Shown here in pieces: positions 26,910 through 58,682 of a stretch of DNA of 64,000 nucleotides (position 1 is the stretch's first letter; every line of letters starts with the position of its first letter). A model generated the notes under the pieces. It saw only the letters and a list, made by a program, of their open reading frames with translations, ran no database searches and was not told where the DNA came from. The stretch is from assembly GCA_030295235.1 (NCBI GenBank), contig AP026123.1:620001-684000 (forward strand), in the 5' to 3' direction. This stretch comes from Fistulifera solaris (taxonomy: Eukaryota). The position numbers and the translations under genes were made by a program.

Positions 26910-29060
26910 AATGCGTTTCGAATGAAGATGATAGTTAGTTCATATTTCATACTCCGGAGTATATTGGTATTTGAATGGTATATGATTATACACTGCGCTT
27001 TTTGGTTTGAGGACCACTTTCGTTTTCTTCTTTGATAGTGACTGAAATTTAGTCGCGATCGCGTAGAACCAACACTTTACCATCATAGTAAAAATGGCAG
27101 TCGACGATACGGATGCTTTTCGACGCAAATAGTTGCGTTTCGAATGAAGATGACAGTTAGTTCATATTTCATATATTGGTATTTGAATGGTATTTGATTT
27201 TACACTTCGCGCTTTTGTTTGTGAACAACTTTGGTGCTCTCGTTGCTTTGGGGGCGTTTTAAAAGTGACTGAAATTTAGTCGCGATCGCGTAGAACCAAC
27301 ACTTTACTGTTATAGTGAAAATGGCAGTCGACGATACGGATGCTTTTCGACGCAAATAGTTGCGTTTCGAATGAAGATGACATTTAGTTCATATTTCATA
27401 TATTGGTATTTGAATGGTATTTGATTATACACTTCGCGCTTTTGTTTGTGAACAACTTTGGTGCTCTCATTGCTTCGGTGGCGTTTCAAATGACTGAAAT
27501 TTAGTCGCGATCGCGTACAACCAACACTTTACTGTTATAGTGAAAATGGCAGTCGACGATACGGATGCTTTTCGACGCAAATAGTTGCGTTTCGAATGAA
27601 GATAGTATTTGAAAGGTGTTTGATTATACACTTCACGCTTTTGTTTGTGAACAACTTTGGTGTTCTCATTGCGTCGGTGGCGTTTTAAAAGTGACTGAAA
27701 TTTAGTCGCGATCGCGTAGAACCAACACTTTACCATCATAGTAAAAATGGCAGTCGACGATACGGATGCTTTTCGACGCAAATAGTTGCGTTTCGAATGA
27801 AGATGACATTTAGTTCATATTTCATATATTGGTATTTGAATGGTATTTGATTATACACTTCGCGCTTTTGTTTGTGAACAACTTTGGTGCTCTCATTGCT
27901 TAATTTGTCGCGATCGCGTAGAACCAACACTTTACCATGATAGTGAAATTTCAGTCGACGACACGGATGCTTTTCGACGCAAATAGTTGCGTTTCGAATG
28001 AAGATGATAGTTAGTTCATATTTCATACTCCGGAGTATATTGGTATCTGAATGGTATTTGATTATACACTTCACGCTTTTGTTTGTGAACAACTTTGGTG
28101 CTCTCATTGCTTTGGGGGCGTTTTAAAAGTGACTGAAATTTAGTCGCGATCGCGTAGAACCAACACTTTACCATGATAGTGAAAATGGCAGTCGACGATA
28201 CGGATGCTTTTCGACGCAAATAGTTGCGTTTCGAATGAAGATGACATTTAGTTCATATTTCATATATTGGTATTTGAATGGTATTTGATTTTACACTTCG
28301 CGCTTTTGTTTGTGAACAACTTTGGTGCTCTCATTGCTTCGGTGGTGTTTTAAAAGTGACTGAAATTTAGTCGCGATCGCGTAGAACCAACACTTTACCA
28401 TCATAGTAAAAATGGCAGTCGACGATACGGATGCTTTTCGACGCAAATAGTTGCGTTTCGAATGAAGATGACAGTTAGTTCATATTTCATATATTGGTAT
28501 CTGAATGGCATTTGATTATACACTTCACGCTTTTGCTTGTGAACAACTTTGGTGCTCTCATTGCTTCAGTGGTGTTTTAAAAGTGACTGAAATTTAGTCG
28601 CGATCGCGTAGAACCAACACTTTACTGTTATAGTGAAAATGGCAGTCGACGATACGGATGCTTTTCGAACGCAAATAGTTGCGTTTCGACTAAAAATGAT
28701 AGTTGGTTCATATTTCATGGTATTTGATTATACACTTCACGCTTTTGTTTGTGAACAACTTTGGTGCTCTCATTGCTTTGGGGGCGTTTCAAAAGTGACT
28801 GAAATTTAGTCGCGATCGCGTAGAACCAACACTTTACCATCATAGTAAAAATGGCAATCGACGATACGGATGCTTTTCGACGCAAATACTTGTAGTTGCG
28901 TTTCGAAAGAAGATAGTATTTGAAAGGTTTTTGATTTTATACAATTCGCGATTTTGTTTGTGAACAAAGATCTTTGGTGCTCTCATTGCTTCGGTGGCGT
29001 TTTAAGTGACTTTTTTTTTTTATGTCGCGATCGCGTACAACCAACACTTTACCATCATAC
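26910..29060. repeat. AT-rich satellite, consensus 227 bp, ~9.5 units
   Basis: tcgcgatcgcgta at 27053, 27280, 27505, 27706, 27908, 28144, 28371, 28598, 28810, 29025 (spacings 201-236). Confidence 0.97.
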
Positions 29061-39220: not shown

Positions 39221-40609
39221 ATGCTCGCACGAACATCATTATTTCGTTTCGGAAAGGCCAGTTTCCCACGGTCCTTCTCAACGGCGTCCATCGAGACGCA
39301 AAGTCAGACGGAACACTGCATTCAGCTAGAGGAACAGTACGGTGCCTTCAATTACGCGCCCCTTCCGGTTGTCCTCAATAAGGGTCGAAACACCAAAGTA
39401 TGGGACGTCGAAGGCAACGAATACTTTGATTTTTTGAGCGCTTACTCGGCCGTGAATCAAGGTCATTGTCATCCGAAAATTCTGGAGGCACTTTATGAGC
39501 AGGCGTCCAAGTTGTGTCTGACGAGCCGTGCCTTTCACAACGACTGCTTGGGAGAGTATTCCGAATACATCACCAAGTACTTTGGTTACGACCGTGTTTT
39601 ACCCGCCAATACGGGTGTGGAGGGCGGGGAGACAGCCGTCAAACTAGCTCGTCGATGGGGTTATGCGGTCAAGGGGATTGCACCCAACAAAGCTCGAGTG
39701 CTGTTTGCCAACCAAAACTTTTGGGGAAGAACTCTAGCTGCTATTTCGAGCTCCAATGATCCGACGGCGTTCCGTGGTTTTGGACCTTATATGCCGGGCT
39801 TTTCAAATATCCCATTCAACGATTTGGGCTCGCTCGAGAGTGAATTCGAAAAGGATGTAAGTAGTTATAGACGATGAGTAGGAAGCTTATGTTGAGTCGG
39901 CAGAAAACTCATCGGTGTCTTGCAAAATTTAGGCTGAGAATATTGCTGCATTCATGGTCGAACCGATCCAAGGAGAAGCTGGTGTTGTTGTTCCCACGGA
40001 TGGATACATGAAAAGGTGAAGCAGCTCTGCGAAAAGTACAACGTTCTCTTAATCGCTGACGAAGTTCAGGTAGGAATTGGACGCACTGGCTACGAGCTGG
40101 CTGTGCAACACGATGACTGCAAACCTGATATGATTGTCTTGGGAAAAGCTTTGTCGGGTGGTGTTTTACCGGTGTCGGCTGTTTTGGCTTCCGATGAAGT
40201 CATGTTGCAATTAAAACCAGGCGAGCATGGTTCTACCTACGGTGGAAATCCGCTGGCGTGTAAAGTCGCAACGGCTGCTTTGCAGGTTCTTAGAGACGAA
40301 AATTTATGCCAGAATTCAACAGCCCGCGGTGAGCAACTCCGAAAGGGGTTGAACAAATTGAAGGGCACAACCGCTATTGCAGAAGTACGAGGACGTGGAC
40401 TGCTCAACGCTATTGTCATTGATGAACCCAAGGGTCACTACGGTGCCGCCGGAAAAGCGTACGAACTTTGCCTGAAAATGAAGGATAATGGCTTATTGGC
40501 AAAACCTACGCACGGCAACATAATTCGTTTCGCTCCTCCTTTAACAATCACAGAAAACGAGGTTGATCAGTGCCTTGACATTATCGAGAAGAGCCTTGGT
40601 GAACTTTAA
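39221..40609 (+). CDS. OAT: Ornithine delta-aminotransferase, mitochondrial
   Basis: [52 protein letters not shown]; intron 39857-39932; slip near 40012. Confidence 0.97.
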
Positions 40610-40974
40610 TCGAATACAGCGATCTTTGAGAACATGGGTTTCGTTCGAAATCATATTTTCTCTTGATAGTACTTTTCTATTCTTGCTTTTTTTATGATAA
40701 GTTTAGCCGGGGAGTCTCATCTGCATTTGCCTAACCTTTAGAGAGCACCTTTCCGACTAGCGTCGGCATGAATCATCCCCTTATCTCGTACGGGGAATAG
40801 TTTAATGCACTACACGTTGATTCTTCACCTCAATAGGATCGTTAAACCATCAGTATCATCTTTCGATACATGCCATAACGAAAATTATCGCCCAAAATGT
40901 GGTTCTCAAAGAAATAGCTATAGGGATTTAGTCGGAAATGTCACCCCTATCAGCAAAATTCGGCGTTTCAGGTC

Positions 40975-42224
40975 ATCCAGAGATTCTGTGCTCGTTCCAG
41001 AAATTCTGGAATCGTTGTGTTGAATCAAACAGAGATTCTGTGGTCGTTCCAGAAATTCTGGAATCGTTGTGTTGGGTCAAACAGAGATTTCGTGGTAGTT
41101 CCAGAAATTCTGGAATCGCTGTGCTGGGTCAAACAGAGATTCTGTGGTCGTTCCAGAAATTCTGGAATCGTTGTGTTGGGTCAAACAGAGATTTTGTGGT
41201 CGTTCCAGAAATTCTGAATCGCTGTGTTGGGTCAAACAGCGATTCTGTGGTCGTTCCAGAAATTCTGGAATCATTGTGTTGGGTCAAACAGAGATTCTGT
41301 GGTCGTTCCAGAAATTCTGAATCGCTGTGTTGGGTGAAACAGCGATTCTGTGGTCGTTCCAGAAATTCTGGAATCGTTGTGTTGGGTCAAACAGAGATTC
41401 TGTGGTCGTTCCAGAAATTCTGGAATCGCTGTGTTGGGTCAAACAGAGATTCTGTGGTCGTTCCAGAAATTCTGGAATCGCTGTGTTGGGTCGCACAGCG
41501 ATTTTGTGGTCGTTCCAGAAATTCTGGAATCATTGTGTTGGGTGAAACAGCGATTCTGTGGTCGTTCCAGAAATTCTGGAATCGGTGTGTTGGGTCAAAC
41601 AGAGATTTTGTGGTCGTTCCAGAAATTCTGAATCGCTGTGTTGGGTCAAACAGAGATTTTGTGGTCGTTTCAGAAATTCTGGAATCGGTGTGTTGGGTCA
41701 AACAGAGATTCTGTGGTCGTTCCAGAAATTCTGGAATCGCTGTGTTGGGTCAAACAGAGATTTTGTGGTCGTTTCAGAAATTCTGGAATCGCTGTGTTGG
41801 GTCAAACAGCGATTCTGTGGTCGCTCCAGAAATTCTGGAATCGTTGTGTTGGGTCAAACAGCGATTCTGTGGTCGCTCCAGAAATTCTGGAATCATTGTT
41901 TTGGGTGAAACAGCGATTCTGTGGTCGTTCCAGAAATTCTGGAATCGCTGTGTTGAATCCAGCAGAGATTCTGTGGTCATTCCTGAATTTCTGGAATCGC
42001 TGTGTTGGGTCAAACAGAGATTCTGTGGTCGTTCCAGAAATTCTGGAATCATTGTTTTGGGTGAAACAGCGATTCTGTGGTCGTTCCAGAAATTCTGGAA
42101 TCGCTGTGTTGAATCCAGCAGAGATTCTGTGGTCATTCCTGAATTTCTGGAATCGCTGTGTTGGGTCAAACAGAGATTCTGTGGTCGTTCCAGAAGTTCT
42201 GGAATCGCTATATTGGGTCAAACA
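40975..42224. repeat. 52-bp minisatellite, ~24 units, each with two dyads
   Basis: Unit gttccagaaattctggaatcgctgtgttgggtcaaacagagattctgtggtc; period 52 (40994, 41046...); 156-bp higher-order block at 41957/42113. Confidence 0.98.
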
Positions 42225-42540
42225 AATACAAGGATTCTGTTCTTTCTAGCAAGATACTGTACAGTGTTCTTGTAAGATTTCCAGAAAATCTGGAGTTGGT
42301 CTTTGTGTCCAGCAGATGTACCCGCGATCCGCGATAGGTTTATTACGTTTAACCTTGATCGGAGACGACATTACTTCATTCCTTGTAACCTTACCGACGA
42401 TGGAGACGACGACGATGATGGTGATTGCGCGTCTCGCTTTTGTTGCAACTTTACACATCTTCAAGCAAAGAGTCATCATTAAACGAATACTCTTATTATT
42501 TTATTTACAATAAGCCAAACACCATCAAAACGAGCATCCA

Positions 42541-43133
42541 ATGGGAAACATTTTTTGCGGCGAAAGGAAGAAAGCACAAAAGCTACTGCTTTCGATAGCA
42601 AAGATATCAACAGCTCCTCGAATGAAATTCCGAGCTCGGCTTTGCACTCGTCTTTTCCTGCTACAAACGGTAATAATGCTCTACAAAATCAACAGCAACA
42701 GAATGAGATACTCAATGATCCTGTAGAGTTAGCGAAACTTCAAGCATCCCGAGAGGAAGAAGCTCGATTACAACTGGTCCTTCAACAAGCCGGCCGAGCC
42801 ATGGTATCGGTTCGGTCGACGCGGGGTAGCACGCCATATTACGATCAAGGCTTTGCCGCTGCCTTGCACCAGCATTTAGAACAAACAACGAAATTTCCTT
42901 CGGTTCCAAACGAATTGCCCCCGCCAAGTCAAACACCCGTATATAACAGTTTATCAAAACCAATGTGGCAAGATATCTTGCTGGGGAAACAAGATAGTGG
43001 GTTGGCTGGTCTAGCCGGAGAGAATCCTCATACTTACATGGATCACGAAGCGGAAGCGTTTCTCGACAAGGTGCAGGTCAAGAAAGAAAGACTGTTTGCA
43101 GGCACAAACCCCATGGTGGAGAATTTGCTGTAA
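42541..43133 (+). CDS. N-acylated small protein, LAMTOR1/Ego1-like
   Basis: MGNIFCG (Gly2, Cys6) joins the downstream ORF via a 1-nt slip near 42563; helix EEEARLQLVLQQAGRAMVSV. Confidence 0.5.
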
Positions 43134-43216
43134 AGTATGTCAATTGTGATTTGTATAGAAAGAGTAGGTCGAGTGGACTTACTTGCTTTATGAATGTTAT
43201 AAAAACTGTCTATTCT

Positions 43217-44107
43217 TTAGAGAGCGTCGATTGTTTCACGTTCATCAATTTGAACGTGTCCTACTAAATTGAACGACACTAGTCGATCCTTCCCTTCGTT
43301 AGTTGCCTCAGTCCATTCCATGTCATCCACCATGATCAAAGATGCTTTCCCCATGGCAGTCCCTTGATGAAATTTGTAACGCCTTCTGGGTGTCACAACA
43401 TCCAGACTCGCCGCGAGAGCTGCCGCGGCAATGCCCGTCGCTGGATCCTCCGGATAACCCGAGGCCCGAGGAAATTGTCGACATTCGTATTCTTCATCAT
43501 TCACTTTGGCGTACAAATACAATCCCGTCGAATGAACTAAAGCATCACAACAACTTTTGAAGTGTTCTGGATTAAGAGGGGCCTTGGCTTGGTGCAAGGC
43601 TTCCACCGAGTGGACGCGGATGAGTGTTTTTGGTCGAGCAATCGATGCGTGACAAAACGATGACGACTGTACGTCCGTCGATTGCAAACCCAATGTATCC
43701 CGAATTAATCGGAACAAAAGAGGTGAATTGGTAACTTTTTGTTGCTGTAATTGTGCTTGCATGTGTAAAGAAACAATCTGATCGGGAACATCTATTTGAG
43801 CTTGATAGGTAGTCTCGCTACTATCTTGGAAACGAACCATCGAGGTCTGCTCCGCCATACAAAAAGCACCTCCCATAGCAGCATGGGCACAAAAGCTTAC
43901 TTCTTCTCCCGTCGGCATATAAAATGCCATTCGCTTCTGGAGTGGATCGATCACCACACTTTCCCAAGCACAAGTCTTGGCGAGTTCCGAGCCGACCAAG
44001 TTTTCGCCCATAAAGACAGTAACTGGATTTCCTCCCGTTCCTTTCCATTGACAAAAGACACGTGCGGAAATTTTGTGAATGAAGCGTGCTGCATTGTTTG
44101 TGGGCAT
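43217..44107 (-). CDS. PhzF-family isomerase/epimerase
   Basis: VF...GGNPVTV, FYMPTGEEVSFCAHA, RQFP...EDPATGIAAAALA, HQGTAMGK. Confidence 0.9.
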   Translation of the reverse strand: MPTNNAARFIHKISARVFCQWKGTGGNPVTVFMGENLVGSELAKTCAWESVVIDPLQKRMAFYMPTGEEVSFCAHAAMGGAFCMAEQTSMVRFQDSSETTYQAQIDVPDQIVSLHMQAQLQQQKVTNSPLLFRLIRDTLGLQSTDVQSSSFCHASIARPKTLIRVHSVEALHQAKAPLNPEHFKSCCDALVHSTGLYLYAKVNDEEYECRQFPRASGYPEDPATGIAAAALAASLDVVTPRRRYKFHQGTAMGKASLIMVDDMEWTEATNEGKDRLVSFNLVGHVQIDERETIDAL

Positions 44108-44279
44108 GCTGCAAGGGATGCTCTCGAGGCACAAGACTACTGACCTGATGTTATTACTATGTGTTTCCTCGCTCTCCCGAATGATGACAACAACATGAGG
44201 AGTCGTCTCATGAGACAATAATAACATCATGAGGACAAGCTGTGGAGTCGCGCGAGACGTGAGACGTGAGACGCGAGAC

Positions 44280-44405
44280 GTTCTGCGTCGTCGGCCGGAA
44301 AATCTGTATGACGTGTCCAGAAAATCTGGACCAGCGTTCTGTGTCGTCTGACGGAAATTCTGTATGATGAAGAGTCGTCCAGAAAATCTGGACCATCATT
44401 CTGCA
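44280..44405. promoter_or_regulatory. Divergent-promoter duplication with two GTCCAGAAAATCTGGAC palindromes
   Basis: Copies at 44315-44331 and 44377-44393; weaker variants at 44295 and 44351; lies between the PhzF-like and DNMT2 starts. Confidence 0.55.
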
Positions 44406-44586
44406 GCCGCTTTTTTTTCGCATTATTGCATTCCAATAACACAATTAAGAAGGATGAAGCAGTGAAAGAAGCATGTCTTTTCGCATTCTGTGCTGTTTAT
44501 TGGTAACTGCTCATTGCTCATCCTTTTTCACACAGATTAGAGTTACGCTGGCATCATTTCGATATTATACGAAACCATTGTTTACC

Positions 44587-45793
44587 ATGAAACGAACTAG
44601 AAACGAGGATGCACCTCCTAAGGATCCGTTGCTATCGTCCCAAAAAACAATCCGCTTTGTGGAGTTTTATGCAGGAGTCGGTGGATGGACTATGGCGCTG
44701 CAACAAGTTGTAGAGCGGGGGCATTCCGACCTATCTGGCTTGCGATTCGAATGCGTCGCTGCCCTCGATCATTCGGATCTTTGCAAAGTTGTGTACGAAC
44801 ACAACCACAAACCCGTCACCTTGTCGAATCGACCGATCCAAAAACTCACGGTCGGCCAAGTAGAAGGGTGGCAGGCCGATTTGTTTGTCATGAGTCCTCC
44901 TTGTCAACCACACAGTCGTCAACATACGCATCAGAAACGAGAATTGCAAGACAAGCGTTCCGAAAGTTTTCTGCACTTGTGTGAGTTACTTCAGTCACTT
45001 TCGACCGTACCTTCCGTCATTTTGCTGGAAAATGTGGTTGGATTTGAACGATCGCAAAGTTTTTCCTTCTTTCAAAAAAGTGTTAAAGGATCGAAATTAT
45101 CGGTGTTGTCATTTCATATTACAACCCAGTCAAGTTGGATTACCCAACGATCGACCTCGTTTCTATTCTGTGGCTGTACAAAACGATTATATCAAGCTAG
45201 AGAAAGATTCTTGGCAAGCCAAGTACTTTACAAAACCGTCTGATGACATTAGTGCGGATGTTATCATTCAAACGGAAATCCCCGAGTTGGGAGTGAAAGC
45301 GATGAACAGCATCACCGAAAAGGATATCCCCAAGCTTCAACACTTCCTTGATAATTCGCCCGATCCGCGTTTGAGCATTCCGGAGAAAGTTCACCAAAAG
45401 CGGGCAGCGTGGTGTCTTGACATTGTCACTCCCGAACAACGACGTACATCGTGTTTCACGTCGGGCTATGGGAAATTTGTTCGCGGCACTGGCAGTGTCT
45501 TATACACGGGAGAAGGAACGTTTGAGCTGGTAGCACCCGAACAGCGCGAATACGATGCTGAGTGGGACAAGGATTTGGATTGGACGAAAGCGCGGTACTT
45601 TTCTGGTTCCGAGTTGGCTCGTCTATTTGACTTCTCAAATGACTTTGCTTTTCCGCGAACCGTATCCGTGGGACAGCAGTGGAAGCTTGTGGGCAATTCA
45701 CTTAATGTGAGAGTCGCGGCTCGACTATTGGAGTTTGCGTTTAGGGTACGCATGGACGCGTTGTTGATAAATGATAACAGCAAAGACTTGTGA
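44587..45793 (+). CDS. DNMT2: DNMT2/TRDMT1 tRNA cytosine-5 methyltransferase
   Basis: EFYAGVGG, MSPPCQP, LLENVVGF, PNDRPRFY, DNMT2-specific CFTSGY, GNSLNV; extra A near 45075. Confidence 0.93.
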
Positions 45794-45935
45794 TGACTAA
45801 ACCCAATCCAAGTTTCATAGGAGCATTCCATGACTTTAAATATAGAACTGATACAACCGAGAACTAGACACAATGTGTCACTATAGCTTTGAGCCAGACA
45901 AAGTGCTATCTTTGTTAAAGTTCGTAATGACTGGA

Positions 45936-48034
45936 TTACAGTGCGTTTTCATCGATTGAGTCTCCATCAATGTTCTCGTCGCTGAGAGGTTCTCCGTCAA
46001 GCTCTTCGCCGATCGATTCCCCGTCAATGTTTTCATCATCCAGAGGCTCCCCATCGACGTCTCTGTTAGTGGCATTGTCTTTCGAGTCCTCTTCTAAGGA
46101 TTCCCCATCGACGTCATCGACATCAACGCGATCATCGTCTACTTCGGAATCTTCTCTTGAGCATTTGTTCGTTACATAATCTTCCCCCCTGACATGGTTT
46201 TTGAATAAAACGGCCCTCTTCGGTGAGAAACCTTTCTTCGGGTAAGCGTTCAATGACATCCCAGTCACCCTTCGGCGCACAGTCCTTCTGTTCATCGCTC
46301 GGTGACGGCTGCAACTCCGCGTCGTCAAGTTCTGAATCTAAAGATCTATCTTTGACATTGTCTTCGTGTTGTGTGAGACTGGATTTCTTCTCTGTAAACT
46401 TTGGTTTTATCTTCTTCCCTTCGAACCTATCCTGTAATTCATCCAAAAACAAGGGACTATAAACGCTCCAATTCGTCCAAGCTGCTAAGATTGAACTAAT
46501 TTCGACGGCAAGCTTATTGCGGGTAAGCCGCCCACCCCATTCCATCCTACCAATTGCCGTGAAGACGTCTGGGGCCATTTTTTCAATTGCGTCACGATAT
46601 CGAAACGCGTTCCGGACTCCAGGCTGTTGCGAATTAAAAAGAATATCAGAAAGAAGAAACAGCTGCGCTGTTTTCTGCTCCATTGCAACGTCCTTCGGCA
46701 CGTTCTCTGAGGGTTTTTCTTTCAACAACTCCTGAAGCATATCGCAGATATGTCGAAATGAGCCGCTTTTTTCGAAACAAAAGGCCATGGCTTGACAAAT
46801 TGAGCCACGTGACGTAGTGAGCTCCTTTCGAAACAGACGTCTGAATTCAGTTAATTCGCGCGGTGTGAGGTCTTGCCCGTCGCTAGTTCCACAGTGTCGT
46901 CGGCGTGCATCTGGAAGTTCCGTGCAAATTGCAGTTGGGACTTCTTTCTTGTCACCATGATGCAGAGGAGGCGGAATCCATACCGGTCCTCCCTCTTCCA
47001 TTACAAAGGGTTCTGTATGCCAAGACTCCCAGGTGTCCCCATGCGCAAAACTCCACACACGCCAAAGATAGTAATTTCGTTCAGTGTCACTCCATGAACA
47101 TTCTTGCTCTCTTCTCAACTTCTGTTCCAGCGGGTGCTCATCGCTAGCCACAGCAAAAGCAGCATTAGAAATTAAATGCTCTCTTTCGCTATCTGAAGGT
47201 ATAAGAACCTCAATAGAACCCGCACCAGCTTTTAGTTTGGTCGGCCTACTAGACATTTCTTCATGATGATTTGGGACATGGCGACCCCACCGCACCATGA
47301 TAAACCTCCCTACTCGAAAGGCATCCGTGTCATTTAGCTCCTTCAAAGCTGCTTCCGCGTCGGCGCGATAGCGAAAACACACGAAACCTGAATGTCTATT
47401 TCGAAATCGCTCTTCGGGGGTTCTAGCCCACATGATTTTGACCGAATGCAACGGACCTTTGGAATCAAAAAGGAGCTCAACAGGCAAAGAGTTAGAAGAG
47501 TCCTCTGAGAATAGGAATCATGATTCAGTCAACTGTACCGACTAGATAGACGTTATCTCACCAAATTGCACAAACACGTCATATACTTGTTCTTCGGTAA
47601 GATGGGGGCGAGATTTCCCACAAACAAATTCGTAGTAATATTCTCCTCCCCAGGTTGAACAAACGAGCCAGATACACGCTGATTCGAAGGTCGTGGGTGC
47701 TTCGATAGCATCGTCGTTTCCGCGTTTAATTCTTGCAATAACGCATCCATTTTGGCTTTCCGGGAGGAGCTTATCGCTCCGTGATGTCGTTTCATCGAAG
47801 AAGTAATTGAAGCCTTCACAGGATCTTTCTTCGTGATCGTTACTGCTCCCGAATCTAATTTGGTAGCTTCGCATGAGGTTGGCATAAATACTTTTGTCGA
47901 ATTAAATGCGTCTTCATCATCAGGCTTGCCCATTCTTGACTTCTTTTTGAGGGTCGCAAAAACTCGTCTTCCTCCGAGGACGATGTGTCGCCACTCTCGG
48001 GAGGCGGGGCGCCTTTACGATGACGGATACTCAT
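45936..48034 (-). CDS. U2SURP: U2 snRNP-associated SURP-motif protein (SR140): RRM, SURP, CID
   Basis: TTNLFVGNLAP, SVKIMWARTPEE, YYLWRVWSF, LFLLSDILFNS, acidic DxDGEPL repeats; intron 47457-47561; several slips. Confidence 0.88.
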
Positions 48035-48163
48035 GATAACCGTGCCAATACCTTTGTTGCGAATTTAACTATACAGAAAGAAGAAATGCGGTAGGCCTGC
48101 AACATCGTAAGCTTTTGACACTCTAACACCTTTTCATGATACGGCAATGCGAATACCAGGTAT

Positions 48164-48690
48164 AACGCTTCGAATAATGCCTACGTAGATTCTGCGTAGG
48201 CCTGGTACGGAAATTTATCGACAGAGGGGGGACCCGGATAAGGTTTTACTCGACCTCATTAATTTGTGCATCTGGATTGCATCAAAGTCATCATCGCCTT
48301 CACCAAGATGATGTATCCGTACCAAGAAGCGATAAATGACAGCAACTCGAACTCGAAACGTGAAAAGGATGATGGACGCAACGCTTCGAGTAATGTCCAC
48401 GTAGCTTCTACGTAGGCCTGGTACGGGAATTTATCGACAGAGGGGGGACCCGGATTGTGTCTTACTTCGACCTCATTAATTTATTTGTGCATCTGGATTG
48501 CATCAAAGTCATCATCGCCTTCACCAAGATGATGTATCCGTACCAACAAGCGATAATTGACAGCAACTCGAACTCGAAACGTAAAAAGGATGATGGATGC
48601 AACGTTTCGAAAATTGTTTACGTAGATTCTACGTAGTCCTGGTAGGGAAATTTATCGACAGAGGGGGACCCGGATTATGTCTTAGTTCGC
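48164..48690. repeat. Tandem repeat, 216-221 bp x ~2.4, in the U2SURP/GMPS divergent intergenic region
   Basis: aacg(c/t)ttcga...tacgtag...atttatcgacagagggg at 48164, 48380, 48601. Confidence 0.92.
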
Positions 48691-48881
48691 GCATCCATCG
48701 CGCGCAATTTTTATGTCTGTGCTTCGTACGACTTTACATTCTGCCAACCAAAAGAAAAGGCGCGGTTTTTGTTGTTGCCAACTGCCAACAACAAAAAACT
48801 TCCTTATTAGTCGCAAAGAACATCGATTTACACAATTTTGTCAGACGACCTGTAGTGTTGCAATTCTAACGATACTACACA

Positions 48882-50583
48882 ATGGCTTCTGAGGACACAC
48901 TTCAACAAGCGGGGAGCCTGGGAAATTTGGACCGGTAAGTTTGTGTGAGCCCGATTCTTCCGTTCGACTTCACCTTCCGATCTCATCTGACTTTGTCGTC
49001 TTGCCTCTTTTGACATCAGTCCGCAAATCTCCATCTTGGACTTTGGTTCGCAATATTCTCACCTTATTGCACGACGCGTCCGTGAACTCAACCTCTATTG
49101 CGAGCTGTATTCGTGCCAGGTCTCAGCGGAAGAGCTCGGAAAGCACGAAATCACAGCCATCATTCTTTCAGGAGGACCGTCTTCCGTGTACGACGAAGGG
49201 GCTCCTCATGTTCGAAAAGAAGTATGGGACTTGATTAGTAGCCGACAGATACCGGTACTCGGAATCTGCTATGGAATGCAGGAGCTTGCTTACACATTTG
49301 GTGGACACGTTCAGCCGGGTCTCAAGCACGAGTATGGAAAGGCTCATGTGCAACGTATTGACCCCAATCACACCTCTCCGTTGCTTCACAATATGCCGGA
49401 TGATTTCGTGATGTGGATGTCGCACGGCGATAAACTCGATAAAACGCCCGAAGGGTTCAAAGCAGTTGCCAAAACGAGCAACGCCGAGTTTGTCATCATG
49501 GAAAATATTGAAAAAAAGATGTGGGGACTGCAGTTTCACCCCGAGGTTACCCACTCGCCCCAGGGCAACATTATTCTCCGCAATTTCTGCATCGACATTG
49601 CAGGTGCTAAACCGAACTGGATCATGACCGATTACGCTGCTGAATTCATCGAGTCGGTGAGGAAGCAAGTGGGGGATGGGCATGTGATTGGTGCCGTAAG
49701 TGGTGGTGTAGATTCCACAGTGGCCGCCGTTCTCATGACTAGAGCTATTGGTGATCGCTTCCATGCCGTCATGGTGGATAATGGTTGCTTGCGTAAAGAC
49801 GAAGCTGTTACTGTCGTCAAACGACTACGGGAAGATTGCCATGTAAATCTGCGATGTGTCGACGCATCGGATCGTTTTTTGGGTCTTTTGAAAGGGGTAA
49901 CTGATCCAGAACAGAAGCGAAAGATCATTGGTCGTACTTTCATTGATGTTTTCCAGGAAGAAGCAGATAAGATTCAAGCAGAAAGTGGCAGATGCGACTA
50001 TCTTCTCCAAGGTACACTTTACCCGGATGTGATTGAAAGCATCTCTTACAAGGGTCCATCGGCGACTATTAAAACACACCACAATGTTGGCGGCTTGCCA
50101 GCAACAATGAAACTCAAACTGATTGAGCCGCTTCGTGAGTTGTTTAAGGACGAAGTGCGCGCTTTGGGTATCGCTTTGGGTATCGAAGAGAATAGTGTTT
50201 GGCGCCATCCGTTCCCCGGTCCGGGATTGGCCATCCGTATTCTTGGCGAAGTGACGGCGGAACGAGTCAAGATTTTGCAAGAAGCAGATGCAATCATGAT
50301 TGAAGAGCTTCATAAGGCGGGGCATTATCGCGCCATTGGACAGGCATTCGTTGTGCTTTTGCCAGTGAAAAGCGTGGGTGTAATGGGAGATGGTCGCACC
50401 TACGAGGACGTCGCCGCAATCCGGTGCGTTGAGACGACTGATTATATGACTGCTGACTTTTATCATTTACCTTACGAGGTGATGGGAGCCATGTCAAGCA
50501 GAATCATCAACGAGGTTCGAGGAATCAACCGCGTCTGCTACGATATCAGTTCGAAACCCCCTGCTACTATTGAATGGGAATAG
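48882..50583 (+). CDS. GMPS: GMP synthase (glutamine-hydrolysing)
   Basis: LDFGSQY, LGICYGMQ, QFHPEV, SGGVDS, QGTLYPDVIES, HPFPGPGL, KPPATIEWE; intron 48935-49019. Confidence 0.98.
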
Positions 50584-50693
50584 TTAAGTAGCGTAAATAA
50601 CACGTATTATGTGTATTCCACTTGGTATGCATAATAAAGCACGACAAAAGTCAAATAACTTCGAACTTTTTCCAAGAAACGTTAGCACCATCT

Positions 50694-51966
50694 TCAGCCA
50701 CCGCGTGTGTTGTTGGGAGGTGCGGACCCGTTGTCATTCGCATTTGATCTACCAACAATTGCGTCTGGCCCCGAACTAATAACTTCTTCCACGACCGTAT
50801 TGAAGGATCGACAAGTTGCAACTGGGCATTGAATGCCGAGAAAGTGCCACTGACAATTGTGTGATTTCACTTCGCAATCGTTGCACATGATAGTGACAAT
50901 ACGTTGCAAATCCGCCGGCATAGGATGTTCCGCAATGTCACGAGCCCTAGCTTCCCACGCGGCAGCCATCGATTGCTGACTGACTACTGTCTTTTTTGCA
51001 GATCGGGCACCGATAATCGAACCCCGCTAGTTTACGGAAGCAGTGAGCATGAATGGCGTGTCCGCAGGGCAAGTCCTGCGGCGATTGTCTAGAGGAAAAC
51101 ATATCTTCTCGACAAACGGGACAATTGTTTTTGTACTTGTCTTTCAAGCATTGATGTGTTTCGAAGACCGTGACGGAAATGCACATGCAGCATTGGTCAC
51201 AGTGACGAAAGGATTCCATACCGCCCACGCGGCAGAAACCACATTGATCACAATGGAAGGGCTTTTTACCCTGTATGCAAATGAGTTAGCAACTACAATT
51301 TCAACATGTGAAAAGTGAAAATGGACCTGCAGTTCTTACCAGTGACATCCATAGATTACAGATTCCACAATGATACTCTCCGAATACCGTGTGACAACTC
51401 GTGCACTGGTTCCTGCAGAAAAAGAGTGAAGAGTTGTCAGAAAATTGCGACTTCTTTTCATTCATACCAATCGGTTGTACTTACGTCGCCGCTTGTCTCA
51501 CGTTACAATTCTTGCAAACGACCTCTCGAATTAAGAAACGATTCAACGGCGGATGGCCCGGAGGACTCAATTCATCATGACATATCCGACAACCGAAGAC
51601 TCGATTACAGCAAGGGGCGACAATGTTGCAATTTCTCTCGTAATGCACACAGGCTGCACTCGCTTCTTGCGCGGGCAAGACCGGAGCCGGAGCGGGAGCC
51701 TGTATCGTGCGATTGCCCGTCATGAGTGACTGAATGCGAAATCGTTTTTCATCCGCACTCAACGAAGTATCCGCCATGACCGCTTGAATCGCACGTCTTC
51801 TCGCTACAGCGGCATCTTCTTCTGCTGGAACAGGAGGAGCCGTGACATCGTCCATATCGTTCCCGTCTTCCATTGCGTCTTCGTCGTCGGAGAGATCATC
51901 GTCGTCGTTGGCGCTGTGGTCGTCCATATCCATATCCTCGTCGCGAAAGTCGTCGTCGTTATCCAT
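50694..51966 (-). CDS. CHY/CTCHY/RING zinc-finger E3 ligase (Pirh2/RCHY1-like), paralogue A
   Basis: CVHYERNCNIVAPCC, CPVCREDMF, CGHAIH, YRCPICKK, IMCNDC; introns 51413-51484 and 51271-51339; extra A near 50995. Confidence 0.93.
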
Positions 51967-52170
51967 CGTTCTTTCGTTAGGAAAGACTGTTATAGCGCAA
52001 ACTGTTTAGGATAATACGGAGTAAGATTTTTTAGTCTTCTTTTAGCAAAGAGGGGCAAATGCGAATAAGAATAAGCGCTTCAAATGAAACGATGACTTTC
52101 CCTTATTTCATCTGCTGCTGCCTTCGAGCGTGACGCAGAACGCGGAGATCAAGGAGGGTCATTATTAATT

Positions 52171-52314
52171 CCCACATTTTCTGGAGACGTGAATACATCA
52201 CGCTCCCACATTTTCTGGACACGTCAAAACCACATTCCCACATTTTCTGGACAGGTGAAAACATAATAACACGCCCACATTTTCTGGACAAATCAGACCC
52301 CCAGATTTTCTGGA
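52171..52314. promoter_or_regulatory. Five spaced copies of CCCA(C/G)ATTTTCTGGA in a divergent promoter
   Basis: Copies start at 52171, 52205, 52237, 52274, 52300, between the CHY-A and PEX6 starts. Confidence 0.6.
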
Positions 52315-52472
52315 GATGTCAAGAACATCACATGCACTGCACCCGTCACGACGATTAATTTCGAGACCAGCAGCAGTTATTGTAATCGTCCTTCTTGTTA
52401 TAATTACGGAGCATAAAATTAACGAATTTCGAAGAACAAAATATAAACGCTTTCCTAGTATGGCCTTTCAAA

Positions 52473-54820
52473 ATGATCCGAGCCAGCAACTTTTGTCGCT
52501 CTAGTGAAGAATTCAAGGTGCAGCTCGTGTTGCACGAAGGAAACTGCGAGTCTCAATCGTCTTTGGTTTCGTGGAGAGTTTTGCGGCGCCTTTCTCGGCC
52601 GACTGGAAGTTGGGTGACGCTGTCATGTGCTGCTACGAAGACATGTATTTATACCAGGCTAGTACTCACGGAGGATGACACAAATCATACATCAGTTGAC
52701 GAGGAGAATCTAGTCGTCCGGGTCAATGTGTTGACCGCCTCCAACTTGTTGTCGGGGATGCCGATTAGCCAGGTTAACAATGTTGAATGCACACTCAAGA
52801 CGCTATCCAATGATGAAGATTTACCCACTGCTGAATGCGTTACGCTACGGATATGGAGTATCCCTGTTCCGCCTCCAAGCTTAATCTATTCGCCTCCAAA
52901 AGAGAATTTCCCGTTGCCTGCTCGCAAAACTCTGCTACAAAAAGATATTTTGATAGCTGTTCGTCAAGGCCATGATATTTGTTTTTACGAAGTGATCGAC
53001 ATAGATCGCAATGAGAATGCCAGTATCATGGCGTACGAGACTTCGTCAAATACCTCCTTTCGGATAGAGATGGCCGAACACAAATTAGCATGCCCGCGTT
53101 TACCGCCATTGACAGCAACGAGCAACCTCTTTACATCAACAATCAGCTCTCTTCCGCCACACCCCGATACTTCCGTAGTGATCGAAGCGCTGTCACTACC
53201 GATACATTATTCCCCACAAGAACGTGTACTGCACGTTTGCGGTGAATTACAAAATGTTACGGAAGCAATTCAAGTTGCAGCAGATCGTTTGGGACGGCGA
53301 CTGGTACCAGTACGAGGACTCGCGTTTCATGCTTATTTTCACGGCCGCGTCAAAAATCCGACGGGCTCCTTGGCAGACAAGTTGATCGGGTTAGAAGTGG
53401 CTTTGGAGCAGGCTTTGTATCACGCACCGGCCGTATTGCTGTTGCAGGATTTGGATAAAGAACTTTCTATACATGATCATGAGTTACAAGAAGACGAAGA
53501 AAGCAGAATCTGGTCGTTAATCATGGACTACTTAAAGCCGTCGTCGAACGCAACACTTCGAAAGGGAAAACGATCCGGTACGCCACCGGTACTTGTCGTG
53601 CTCAGTTCCGAGAAGGTATTAAAGCGGGGCCCGCTGATGCGCAATCTAGTTCACCCGTCTGTTGTTTGCTCAATTCCGGACGCAAATTACATCGAGTATT
53701 TGTGGAAACTGCACATAAAAGACATCCCACCAACTGAGCTATTATGCGAGATTCTGTCGGGACGGACACGGGACCAAATCTGTAGAATTCTGCGAAATAT
53801 ACAGCGCAAATTAAACCGTGACGTTCCCGACTTCGTTGCTTTGCTCCGGGAAATTTGCGAAGAACACGACAATAGAACGAAGCTTTCTAGTATGGCGAAA
53901 ATCCCGAAGGTGCATTGGGAAGATGTTGGTGGACTTTCTCATGTCCGCAGCGAAATCATGGAAGCAATTGAACTCCCTCTACAGCATCCAAACCTGTTCC
54001 CTCCATCCACACGGTCTGGAATTTTGCTCTATGGTCCTCCGGGAACAGGGAAAACGCTCGTAGCCAAAGCCGTTGCTACGGAATGCAAGTTACCGTTTCT
54101 TTCGGTAAAAGGGCCTGAATTACTTGGAAGTTACATTGGAGAAAGCGAAGCGAACGTTCGAGAGGTTTTCGCACAAGCTCGGAGTTGCGCTCGTCAAAAC
54201 AAGCCTCCTGCGTGCATCCTCTTTTTGACGAGCTGGATAGTTTGGCGCCTCGCCGCGGAGAACAAGCCAGTGGGGGAAATGTCATAGATCGCGTTGTCGC
54301 CACCTTTTTCGGCGAGCTTGATAAGGACGCAAAGGATTGCTCGATATTTGTGATGGGAGCGACGAATCGACCCGACTTATTGGATCCGTCTCTTTTGCGT
54401 CCCGGTCGCTTCGACCGTCTAGTGTACTTGGGGATCTTTCCCGAAGATCGGGCACAAATATTAGCTGCGCAGATTAGGAAATTGAACCTTGAGGACGAAC
54501 CGCACGTTCTCGCCGAGTTTGTGGTGGACAAGCTGCCGAATAATTTGACGGGTGCGGACTTATCGACCATTGCGACGGGGGCGCAGCTTTTGGCTACGGA
54601 ACGCCTGTGCGCGGAAGCGGAGAATGAATTCCGGATGCAGCAACCAAATGGTAACAGTGAGCTGACTATGGACCAGTTTCTAGAATCTTGGAGCGAAGAG
54701 CGTCTAGTGCCGACTGTGACACTTGATGATTTAATTCAGGCTTCGGAAAAAGTGATACCCAGCGTAAGTGAAGCTGACTTAAAACGTTATGAACTTTTAA
54801 AGGATCGGTTCCGAAGGTAA
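52473..54820 (+). CDS. PEX6: Peroxisomal AAA+ ATPase PEX6
   Basis: Degenerate D1; D2 with [56 protein letters not shown]; slip near 54225. Confidence 0.9.
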
Positions 54821-56950: not shown

Positions 56951-57446
56951 CGAGAGTTTATGATTAGCCATGATCTTCCACTTAGTTTGTAATATTAAGA
57001 GACGTGATTGCGACTAAGGCTGCAATTTCATCCGTTTAGCTGCAATGCATCCTCATTTTCTAGTTCCAAAGTATTGGCCATAGCCTACAACTATCTGCAA
57101 AAAAGTACTGTCGTACCTTTCGCACCGAAGAAGGAGAATGGAACATACAAAGCGAAACGAAGAAACAAGGAACAGTGTAGAGAATAGCTGTTAAGTGTAG
57201 AAGGCAGAAATAGCAAGGATGGAAGAATGCCCATTGCTGACCAGTATATATTACAAAGTAGACGGACATTTGCATCTGTACATTAAGATCTAGACTAATT
57301 TCTTCGTTTCCGATTCTGGACCATAGTTCTTTGGCAAAATCTTCAGCACTTTCGCGACCGCAAAGGATTTGGATCGATCACAAAAAAGAAGCTTTTCTTT
57401 GTTATTGTTGTCGAAGTGATCAACCGCTGAGAAGCACAATAGTAGC

Positions 57447-58682
57447 ATGGAGGACGAACGATTTGCTCATGAGGATCAAGATGAGGACGACATGCAGGTT
57501 GTCGATAGTGACGAGGAAGATTCTGACGACGACGATGAAATGGACAACATCGATGATTCCGAAAATCCACCGGGCCCCACTGAAGAAGATGCCGCCCTTG
57601 ATCGAAGGCGGGCGATCCAGCAAGTCATGGCAGATACTTCGATTAGTCCAGATGAGAAACGGTTCCGGATACAGGCTATCATGAGCGGCAATCGTACTGT
57701 AGTTGCACCTGCACCAGCCCCAATTCAGGCCGCCGTCGAGGCGAACGCAACTTGTGTTCACTACGAGAGAAATTGCAACATAATCGCCCCTTGTTGTGGT
57801 CGAATTTTCGGTTGTCGTATCTGTCATGATGAATTGAGTGCACCGGGGCACCCACCTATGAATCGATTCTTAATTCGAGAGGTCGTTTGTAAGAATTGCC
57901 ACACGAGACAACCCGCATCGTAAGTATGAAAAACTGTCGTGTCTTTGATGGACTTGTCATGCCTCAATTTTTCGCTTTATTCTGTGAAGGAACAATTGCA
58001 TTCACTGTCACAGCATTTTCGGTGAATTCCATTGTAATATTTGCAACTTGTGGATGTCAATGGTAAGTATCAAATGAATTATTACTATTGTATGCACGAG
58101 CAGTGTTCTCAATTCCCGTACGTTTAGGGCAAAAAGCCGTTTCACTGCGATCTATGCGGCTTCTGTCGAGTGGGAGGGATTGAAGCCTTCCGTCATTGCA
58201 ATCAATGTTGCATGTGTATCTCAATTAGTGTCTTTGATACACATCATTGCTTCAAAGACAAATACAAGAACAGCTGCCCCGTGTGTCGCGAAGATATGTT
58301 CTCCTCTCGGCAAGCACCTCAAGACTTGCCTTGCGGACACGCCATTCACGCTCATTGCTTCCGTAAGCTTGCTGGGTTTGATTATCGGTGCCCGATCTGC
58401 AAGAAGACGGTGGTCAGTCAGCAATCGATGGCGGCTGCCTGGGAAGCCAGGGCTCGTGACATTGCGGAGCATCCCATGCCGGCTGACTTGCACCGAATCG
58501 TTGATATCATGTGCAACGACTGCGAAGTGAAATCGCACAATTGTCAGTGGCACTTTCTTGGGATCCAGTGCCCTGGATGCTCGTCATTCAATACTGTCGT
58601 TGAGAATGTTGTGGCCTCTGGGCCTGATGCTGCACCGTCGAGGAACGAAGGAGGTGCCCCTAGTAACGCTGGAGGCGCATAG
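57447..58682 (+). CDS. CHY/CTCHY/RING zinc-finger E3 ligase, paralogue B
   Basis: Same motifs as paralogue A; introns 57920-57989 and 58063-58127 at homologous positions. Confidence 0.95.

What the first reader, a model, noticed from the sequence alone, without database searches (positions are those of the whole stretch)
40975..52314. One palindromic element, TCCAGA-N3-TCTGGA, used as clustered promoter sites and amplified into a satellite
Seen: the same 15-bp dyad occurs in four non-coding places. It is once upstream of the LAMTOR1-like gene (42280-42294) and twice, plus two weak copies, in the PhzF/DNMT2 divergent promoter (44315, 44377). It is five times with different spacers in the CHY-A/PEX6 divergent promoter (52171-52314, reverse orientation, one arm often CCCACA), and ~24 times as the core of the 52-bp array. 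The 44.3-kb flanks (ttctgtgtcgt...gaaattctg) also resemble the array unit. At 52.2 kb the motif is kept while spacers differ, which points to selection for protein binding. Inference: a cis-regulatory system of a dimeric DNA-binding factor, with the array acting as a high-avidity sink, enhancer or boundary, or else a family of transposon-derived binding sites. The array version contains TTCnnGAA, but the spacing is not a canonical heat-shock element.
Basis: partly seen in the sequence, partly recalled or inferred. Interest (0 to 1): 0.8.

Follow-up and report, generated by a model that had tools for sequence, protein, structure and literature searches.

The report
Transposon-carried palindromic minisatellite in diatom
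The repeated palindrome is the core of a short tandem-repeat family scattered between genes throughout this diatom genome and partly carried by rolling-circle transposons, so it looks like mobile repeat DNA rather than a conserved gene switch, although its core is better preserved than the DNA around it.

Summary
The sites are real (37 matches vs 2.7 expected) but not special to this window: two variants match 1,164 and 1,027 times genome-wide, with 0 in controls. They are cores of one dispersed minisatellite family (33-35-bp and 52-bp units). The genome has two homeologous sets. Of 13 syntenic gaps holding a cluster, only 1 shares it by descent; the 41-42.3-kb and 44.3-kb sites are missing from the homeolog. 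About 20 arrays elsewhere are central repeats of a non-autonomous Helentron/HINE-like element with fixed ends, and a broken Rep-helicase copy shares its 5' end. The window's clusters resemble those arrays (75-87%) but lack the ends, as do most arrays. Verdict: mobile repeat, not a conserved promoter system; protein binding is untested. The scan noted this family before on other DNA of this genome, without the transposon link.

The parts
40971..42224 (+). 52-bp minisatellite array (24 units, two dyads per unit, 20 + 32 bp apart); no element ends; absent from the homeolog
   Evidence: no homeolog alignment over 40761-42329, where the C4 gap is about 310 bp with 0 motifs; 84-87% identical to arrays inside the HINE-like element; no terminus hit
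42225..42330 (+). Decayed tail of the same array, containing the 'single' dyad at 42280-42294
   Evidence: linkers match other 52-bp arrays at 80-83% over about 40 bp; missing from the homeolog together with the array
44294..44392 (+). Four-dyad cluster (weak 44294, exact 44316, weak 44350, exact 44378) between the divergent PhzF-like and C5-methylase genes; absent from the homeolog
   Evidence: the one loose hit in the homeologous gap lies in sequence that aligns to non-motif window DNA; 73% over 97 bp to an array on C1
52171..52314 (-). Five units of the 33-35-bp type between the divergent CHY-RING and AAA-ATPase genes; the only cluster shared with the homeolog (2 copies there)
   Evidence: 75-77% to arrays inside HINE-like copies and 76-81% to other free clusters; an old duplicate with part of the AAA gene lies at C3:814.8-815.5 kb

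Best explanation
The dyad is the conserved core of a genome-wide, dispersed minisatellite family, with roughly a thousand clusters (extrapolated). It has 33-35-bp units, 52-bp (20+32) units and higher-order forms. The family moves as cargo. SHOWN: some arrays of both types are the central repeats of a non-autonomous rolling-circle (Helentron/HLE2, HINE-like) element with fixed ends and no target duplication; a broken Rep-helicase element shares its 5' end; one cluster was also copied in a segmental duplication with host DNA; most clusters are present in only one of the two homeologs. INFERRED: the window's clusters are end-less older seeds of this family, the 41-42.3-kb seed expanded in place by slippage or unequal exchange, and clusters survive mainly in untranscribed space, which in this compact genome means upstream of genes. 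INFERRED, weaker: the core is held while linkers drift because a protein (element-encoded or host) or a recombination step recognises it.
For: Abundance: 1,164 and 1,027 exact matches vs 0 in reversed controls. Homeolog contrast: 142 hits in 264 kb of C3 vs 13 in 270 kb of C4. Of 13 syntenic gaps, 11 are one-sided, 1 holds different unit types on the two sides and 1 is shared. Shared termini flank arrays on many contigs: 13 matches to one 3' end, 29 to a looser 3' pattern (1 in control) and 13 to the 5' end. In L151 the 34-bp array runs straight into the 3' end. The base before the 5' TCC is A or G in 14 of 15 ends, and T closes 19 of 19 3' ends (the pattern allowed only A or T there). G000:C36:68.9-75.3 kb begins with the same 5' end and carries DUF6570, Helitron_like_N and PIF1 pieces in order. 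Window units are 75-87% identical to element-borne arrays. The anatomy matches passages on DINE-1/HINE (PMC4067079) and oyster Cg_HINE (PMC7492417).
Against: The window's clusters have no detectable element ends. In the unbiased contiguous sample only one element with ends was found among 15 clusters, so about 20 bounded arrays stand against roughly a thousand free ones. The element also occurs without arrays (L153-L155, L159, L160). It carries the two array types in opposite orientation, and in L157 it sits inside a pre-existing array, so it may have captured the repeats rather than produced them. The target is purine|T, not the T|T of typical HLE2. The Rep-helicase copy is broken, each Pfam piece is below its curated cut-off, its 3' end was not fetched, and no second copy was found. 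The better conservation of the core is not explained by neutral drift.
Confidence: 0.65

Rival explanations
1. Mobile origin plus co-option: the repeats deliver clusters of a real host transcription-factor site (for example a stramenopile HSF with unusual spacing) upstream of genes, and so make one homeolog respond differently. This is compatible with the best explanation and adds function to it.
For: Core kept better than linkers: 0.90 vs 0.62 in 8 of 9 short-unit clusters, and 14 of 14 element-borne arrays. 64 of 66 resolved clusters lie in gaps with a gene start; short-unit clusters lie a median 237 bp from the nearest coding start. Core spacings peak at 20, 32-34 and 51-52 bp, near whole helical turns. 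Precedent: Helitron-borne HSE arrays in Caenorhabditis (PMC6927752, passages). Oomycete HSFs bind gapped and ungapped TTC/GAA arrays (PMC11267843, passages).
Against: No three-unit HSE in any of the three loci, and no TTCnnGAA at 44.3 or 52.2 kb. No fixed orientation to the nearest gene (52-bp type 26 same / 15 opposite; short type 5 / 8). Neighbouring genes share no evident function. Control repeats also avoid tail-to-tail gaps.
Confidence: 0.2
2. The arrays spread mainly without a transposon (circle reinsertion, repair capture, duplication), with the core acting as a recombination or conversion box. The HINE-like element is only an occasional late passenger vehicle.
For: Most clusters lack ends. 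The element inserted into an existing array in L157 and carries the two types in opposite orientation. One cluster was duplicated with host coding DNA. One cluster predates the split of the homeologs.
Against: Both unit types occur inside the same element family on many contigs, including near-identical young copies (97-100% over the 700-bp end region). Old ends would be hard to see, because intergenic DNA is diverged (68% of non-exon bases lie in homeolog alignment blocks).
Confidence: 0.3
3. A conserved cis-regulatory system of these particular genes, with the 52-bp array as a sink, enhancer or boundary.
For: Promoter-side placement and core conservation; the 52.2-kb cluster survives in both homeologs.
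Against: The array, the 42280 site and the 44.3-kb cluster are absent from the homeolog, whose genes are intact at 88-91% identity. Only 1 of 13 gaps is shared. Similar large arrays lie on at least 17 contigs.
Confidence: 0.05
4. Iteron-like arrays that mark replication origins or organise chromatin.
For: Clusters recur every few tens of kb. The sites are phased and contain A-tracts.
Against: Eleven-fold density difference between homeologous stretches. The ARS/centromere motifs reported for an allopolyploid diatom are different sequences (10.1101/2021.11.10.468027, passages).
Confidence: 0.05

Closest known systems
Cg_HINE elements of the Pacific oyster (PMC7492417; abstract and passages seen)
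   Same: [quoted passage not shown]
   Different: There most arrays keep their flanks, whereas here only about 20 of roughly a thousand do. Units are 33-52 bp rather than 140-180 bp. No microsatellite was seen in the left flank. The host is a diatom.
DINE-1 / HINE (non-autonomous Helentrons; PMC4067079, passages) and HLE2 (PMC11417382, passages)
   Same: IR nested in the 5' subTIR, 3' subTIR followed by a stem-loop, central repeats, no target duplication, and DUF6570 in the autonomous partner.
   Different: The target is purine|T with a 5' TC, as in HLE1 (A|T), not T|T. The subTIR match is only 9 of 10 bp. The partner found is broken and no endonuclease domain was seen in the 7 ORF pieces scanned.
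Helitron-borne heat-shock elements of Caenorhabditis (PMC6927752, passages)
   Same: A rolling-circle element scatters tandem copies of a TTC/GAA-rich motif upstream of genes in a lineage-specific way.
   Different: There the sites are canonical HSEs with shown HSF-1 binding and induction. Here no three-unit HSE is present and binding is untested.

Membership tests
HINE / non-autonomous Helentron (carrier element elsewhere in the genome) | 5' subTIR with nested inverted repeat | tested here: met
   15 5' ends with the same hairpin-forming start; 13 genome-wide matches, 0 in control
HINE / non-autonomous Helentron (carrier element elsewhere in the genome) | 3' subTIR of 11-13 bp complementary to the 5' one | tested here: inconclusive
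   9 of 10 bases complementary, read from the ends printed; shorter than the published 11-13 bp
HINE / non-autonomous Helentron (carrier element elsewhere in the genome) | stem-loop between the 3' subTIR and the end | tested here: met
   the same 4-5-bp stem with different loops in 5 of 8 ends folded; weak in L151; absent or different in L158 and L161, which may not be members
HINE / non-autonomous Helentron (carrier element elsewhere in the genome) | no target-site duplication | tested here: met
   flanks differ on the two sides, including three full copies with G before the 5' end. Empty site inferred only from other copies of a repeat into which L099 inserted, not from an orthologous site
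HINE / non-autonomous Helentron (carrier element elsewhere in the genome) | insertion between T and T | tested here: not met
   base before the 5' TCC is A in 10, G in 4 and T in 1 of 15
HINE / non-autonomous Helentron (carrier element elsewhere in the genome) | autonomous Rep-helicase partner with the same ends | tested here: inconclusive
   a broken element with DUF6570, Helitron_like_N and PIF1 pieces (all below curated cut-offs) shares the 5' end; its 3' end was not fetched; no other copy found
HINE / non-autonomous Helentron (the window's own clusters) | element ends around the array | tested here: not met
   no hit of 6 bits or more for either end profile near the three window clusters; no blast hit
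Conserved promoter cis-element | kept at the homeologous promoter | tested here: not met
   1 of 13 syntenic gaps overall; 1 of 3 window loci
Conserved promoter cis-element | specific enrichment upstream of genes | tested here: inconclusive
   2 of 66 in convergent gaps vs 12-17% expected by length (P 0.012-0.0006), but control repeats 0 of 16; home-made gene caller
Conserved promoter cis-element | sequence-specific protein binding and effect on expression | not testable with these tools
   needs pull-down, ChIP or reporter assays
Canonical heat-shock element | three inverted nGAAn units with 2-nt gaps | tested here: not met
   0 in the array, 0 at 44.3 kb and 0 at 52.2 kb; two-unit TTCnnGAA occurs 42 times, in the array only
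CRISPR-like array | unrelated unique spacers | tested here: not met
   spacers share one consensus across clusters; no Rfam match in 40000-53500

The most novel reading that the evidence does not exclude
A rolling-circle element family has scattered about a thousand helically phased arrays of one protein-binding site upstream of genes, with different unit types expanding in the two parental genomes of an allopolyploid diatom. A host factor (for example an HSF with non-canonical spacing) reads them, so that the arrays set homeolog expression bias.
Probability: 0.17. Interest if true: 0.72.

Novelty: new member of a known kind. Interest (0 to 1): 0.4.

Why it matters
It removes an apparent promoter system from the list. 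It also gives what appears to be an unreported case of Helentron-type elements carrying minisatellites in a diatom: the exact motif strings were in 0 papers, and the listings showed no such report. One-sided clusters at otherwise conserved homeologous genes are a built-in natural experiment: existing homeolog-resolved RNA-seq can test directly whether transposon-spread arrays change expression. The unit variants could also serve as subgenome markers.

Tried and rejected
Metagenome scan for two tandem cores: 2 loci, both bacterial low-complexity repeats with a different period, rejected as chance; records of this genome may be left out of that collection. Rfam: 0 matches. Own-genome searches for Helitron_like_N and PIF1 found nothing, yet both domains were later seen in pieces at C36, so those blanks reflect insensitivity. 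No RNA holder was on record; the one run with spliced contigs (X3) did not cover the clusters, which is no evidence either way. Inverted arrays around a transposase: the inverted pair on C1 (L096) flanks two ORFs that read like ordinary host genes by inspection (not scanned). Hairpin covariation: the outer arm positions pair more often than expected (0.81 vs 0.49), but this rests on two or three ancestral site types, and the asymmetric core is conserved too, so hairpin selection or palindrome self-correction was rejected as the main cause; the 52.2-kb cluster does not fold better than shuffles (z -0.7). CpG decay does not explain the linker drift (non-CpG linker positions 0.61-0.64). Other shared ends: all-against-all flank comparison of 75 clusters gave only this element family plus other small repeats. 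Four other 3'-end variants were followed upstream; two were a 1.57-kb array-free subfamily and two showed no matching 5' end. Supplementary figures S7 and S16 of the bioRxiv preprint, which show unnamed repeats, could not be seen and may show this family.
Full report
OBSERVATION. The pattern TCCAGA-N3-TCTGGA with up to 2 mismatches matches the window 37 times, against 2.72 expected. The matches fall in a 52-bp array at 40971-42224 (24.2 copies), at 42280, at 44316 and 44378 with weak copies at 44294 and 44350, and five times on the minus strand at 52171-52314. Each 52-bp unit has two dyads. Among 2,083 cores in 75 clusters, spacings peak at 20, 32-34 and 51-52 bp.

GENOME-WIDE FAMILY. In the 51.7-Mb own genome, the promoter-type variant matches 1,164 times and the array-type variant 1,027 times, with 0 for each pattern read backwards. 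The matches come in clusters with 33-35-bp units, 52-bp units, alternating 68-70-bp dimers and higher-order repeats, all with related linkers. The 52.2-kb spacers are diverged copies of the 33-35-bp unit, and the 42280 site is the decayed tail of the array. The contiguous sample held 15 clusters in 534 kb, which extrapolates to roughly a thousand genome-wide; this is an estimate. A metagenome scan found only two unrelated bacterial repeats.

HOMEOLOG TEST. The window (C3) has a colinear partner on C4 at 82-92% identity in aligned blocks, as in allopolyploid diatoms; locus L012 also carries motifs like those reported for such a diatom's centromeres (passages of 10.1101/2021.11.10.468027). In 264 kb of C3 there are 142 motif hits, and in 270 kb of C4 there are 13. 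Of 13 syntenic gaps holding a cluster, 9 have it only on C3, 2 only on C4, 1 has different unit types on the two sides, and 1 (the 52.2-kb locus, 5 versus 2 copies) is shared. The array, the 42280 site and the 44.3-kb cluster have no counterpart; one loose hit in the 44.3-kb partner gap lies in sequence that aligns with non-motif window DNA. Caveat: only 68% of non-exon bases lie in homeolog alignment blocks, so gain and loss cannot always be told apart; either way the motif is not required at these homeologous promoters. Matches to the 52-bp array and to a 34-bp variant fall mostly on different sets of contigs, which suggests subgenome-specific bursts; only C3 and C4 were shown to be partners.

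A CARRIER. Flanks of large arrays on different contigs share both ends. The element starts with TCCGAAAAG within a hairpin and ends with a near-complementary subterminal repeat, a small stem-loop and CCACAA. The base before the start is A in 10, G in 4 and T in 1 of 15 ends (one false row, L107, was dropped from 16). T follows in 19 of 19 3' ends, where the pattern allowed only A or T. No target duplication is seen. Genome-wide there are 13 matches to one 3' end, 29 to a looser 3' pattern (1 in control) and 13 to the 5' end. Members carry 52-bp arrays in reverse orientation, 34-bp arrays in the same orientation (L151, L152, L156, the C4 copy, and the 3' half in L162), or no array (L153-L155, L159, L160). 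A weak DUF6570 hit (E 0.006) led to C36:68.9-75.3 kb, which begins with the same 5' end and holds frameshifted pieces matching DUF6570, Helitron_like_N, PIF1, Pif1_2B and UvrD_C_2 in order. Four of 7 pieces matched, all below the curated cut-offs. No second copy was found. This anatomy fits DINE-1/HINE elements (PMC4067079, passages) and oyster Cg_HINE (PMC7492417, passages). DUF6570 marks HLE2 (PMC11417382, passages). The purine|T target departs from the T|T rule.

LIMITS OF THE CARRIER MODEL. The window's array is 84-87% identical over 200 bp to element-borne arrays, and the 52.2-kb cluster is 75-77% identical to element-borne short-unit arrays. Yet end profiles find nothing near the three window clusters, and only one element with ends occurs among the 15 clusters of the unbiased sample. 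In L157 the element sits inside an older array. A second route is visible: C3:814.8-815.5 kb is an 85%-identical duplicate of the 5' part of the AAA gene together with a short-unit cluster, absent from the homeolog. So the element is a proven vehicle for a minority of arrays; that it seeded the rest is inference.

WHAT FAVOURS FUNCTION. Taking the middle unit between two cores without requiring it to match, the core is more alike between neighbours than the linkers are: 0.90 versus 0.62 in free short-unit clusters (higher in 8 of 9), 0.86 versus 0.69 in element-borne arrays (14 of 14), and higher in 23 of 31 free long-unit arrays. The 8 exceptions score about 0.35-0.46 on both measures, probably because their period is not 52 bp. 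The flanking cores were selected to match, which inflates the contrast; halving the linker divergence still leaves about a two-fold difference in the short-unit clusters (more if one misassigned cluster is left out) and little more than parity in the element-borne arrays. In the young window array the contrast is small (0.94 versus 0.90). CpG decay does not explain it, and palindrome self-repair cannot, because the asymmetric core is kept too. Placement: of 75 clusters, 9 were unresolved, 32 lie in divergent, 32 in tandem and 2 in convergent gaps, against 12-17% convergent expected by length (P 0.012 to 0.0006). But four other dispersed repeats also had 0 of 16 intergenic gaps convergent (4 exon hits dropped). 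Convergent gaps are short (median 210-298 bp) and probably mostly transcribed (inference). The gene caller was home-made, and 60 of the 75 clusters were picked from match lists. Orientation to the nearest gene is mixed. No three-unit heat-shock element is present, though oomycete HSFs accept varied spacing (PMC11267843, passages), and Helitron-borne HSE arrays are a precedent for co-option (PMC6927752, passages).

VERDICT. This is a real, genome-wide, homeolog-variable minisatellite family with a conserved dyad core, partly carried by a Helentron-type non-autonomous element. It works like the HINE-borne dispersed satellites of oyster and Drosophila. The carrier is close to, but not fully within, the HINE definition, and the window's clusters are end-less relatives. 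A conserved promoter system for these genes is unlikely (0.05); co-opted binding arrays remain possible (about 0.2). The exact motif strings occur in 0 papers of the library, and the listings showed no report of this family; closed supplements of the preprint may show it. Earlier notes of this scan described the repeat family on other pieces of this genome; a word search for the Helentron link found 0 notes. Interest 0.4; new member of a known kind.

Noticed in passing
window 48164-48689: A second dispersed family: a 221-bp repeat with a hairpin-plus-box core; summed contig depth 710-860 against about 30 around it. It lies beside several dyad arrays and is missing from the homeolog here.
   Followed up: partly
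window 26960-29059: An array of 201-227-bp units with a short CG-rich palindrome; unaligned in the homeolog; related pieces occur near other clusters.
   Followed up: no
G000:C36:68.9-75.3 kb (L164): A broken autonomous HLE2-type element (DUF6570, Rep, PIF1 pieces) sharing the 5' end of the carrier family; apparently single-copy.
   Followed up: partly
L159:2867-4436 and L160:2846-4414: A 1.57-kb array-free subfamily of the same element, 99% identical between copies; its 3' end or a one-base variant occurs 7 times.
   Followed up: partly
G000:C4:621092-626953 (L054): A Mutator-like insertion (137-bp inverted ends, 9-bp target duplication) in the homeologous CHY/AAA promoter gap; the family label rests on anatomy only.
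   Followed up: no
G000:C4:597.7-604.6 kb (L051, L052): A broken LTR retrotransposon with 208-bp direct repeats at 98% identity, absent from the window's homeologous place.
   Followed up: no
L024 end, L122, G000:C3:779-780 kb: A short canonical Helitron-like element (hairpin plus CTAG end) inserted in or beside dyad arrays; a small inverted-repeat element likewise at L103, L115, L137 and C3:817.7 kb.
   Followed up: no
G000:C3:814.8-815.5 kb: An old (85%) duplicate of the 5' coding part of the window's AAA-ATPase gene with its repeat cluster, absent from the homeolog.
   Followed up: yes
window 45074, 46184, 47603, 50992: One-base indels against contigs of two or three runs; the frame break in the C5-methylase gene at about 45074 is probably an assembly error.
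   Followed up: no
L012:1040-1120: Sequence resembling two of the centromere/ARS motifs printed in 10.1101/2021.11.10.468027, next to a dyad array; compared by eye only.
   Followed up: no
window 50700-52000 and 57400-58600: Two inverted paralogous CHY zinc-finger genes, about 75% identical across homeologs.
   Followed up: no
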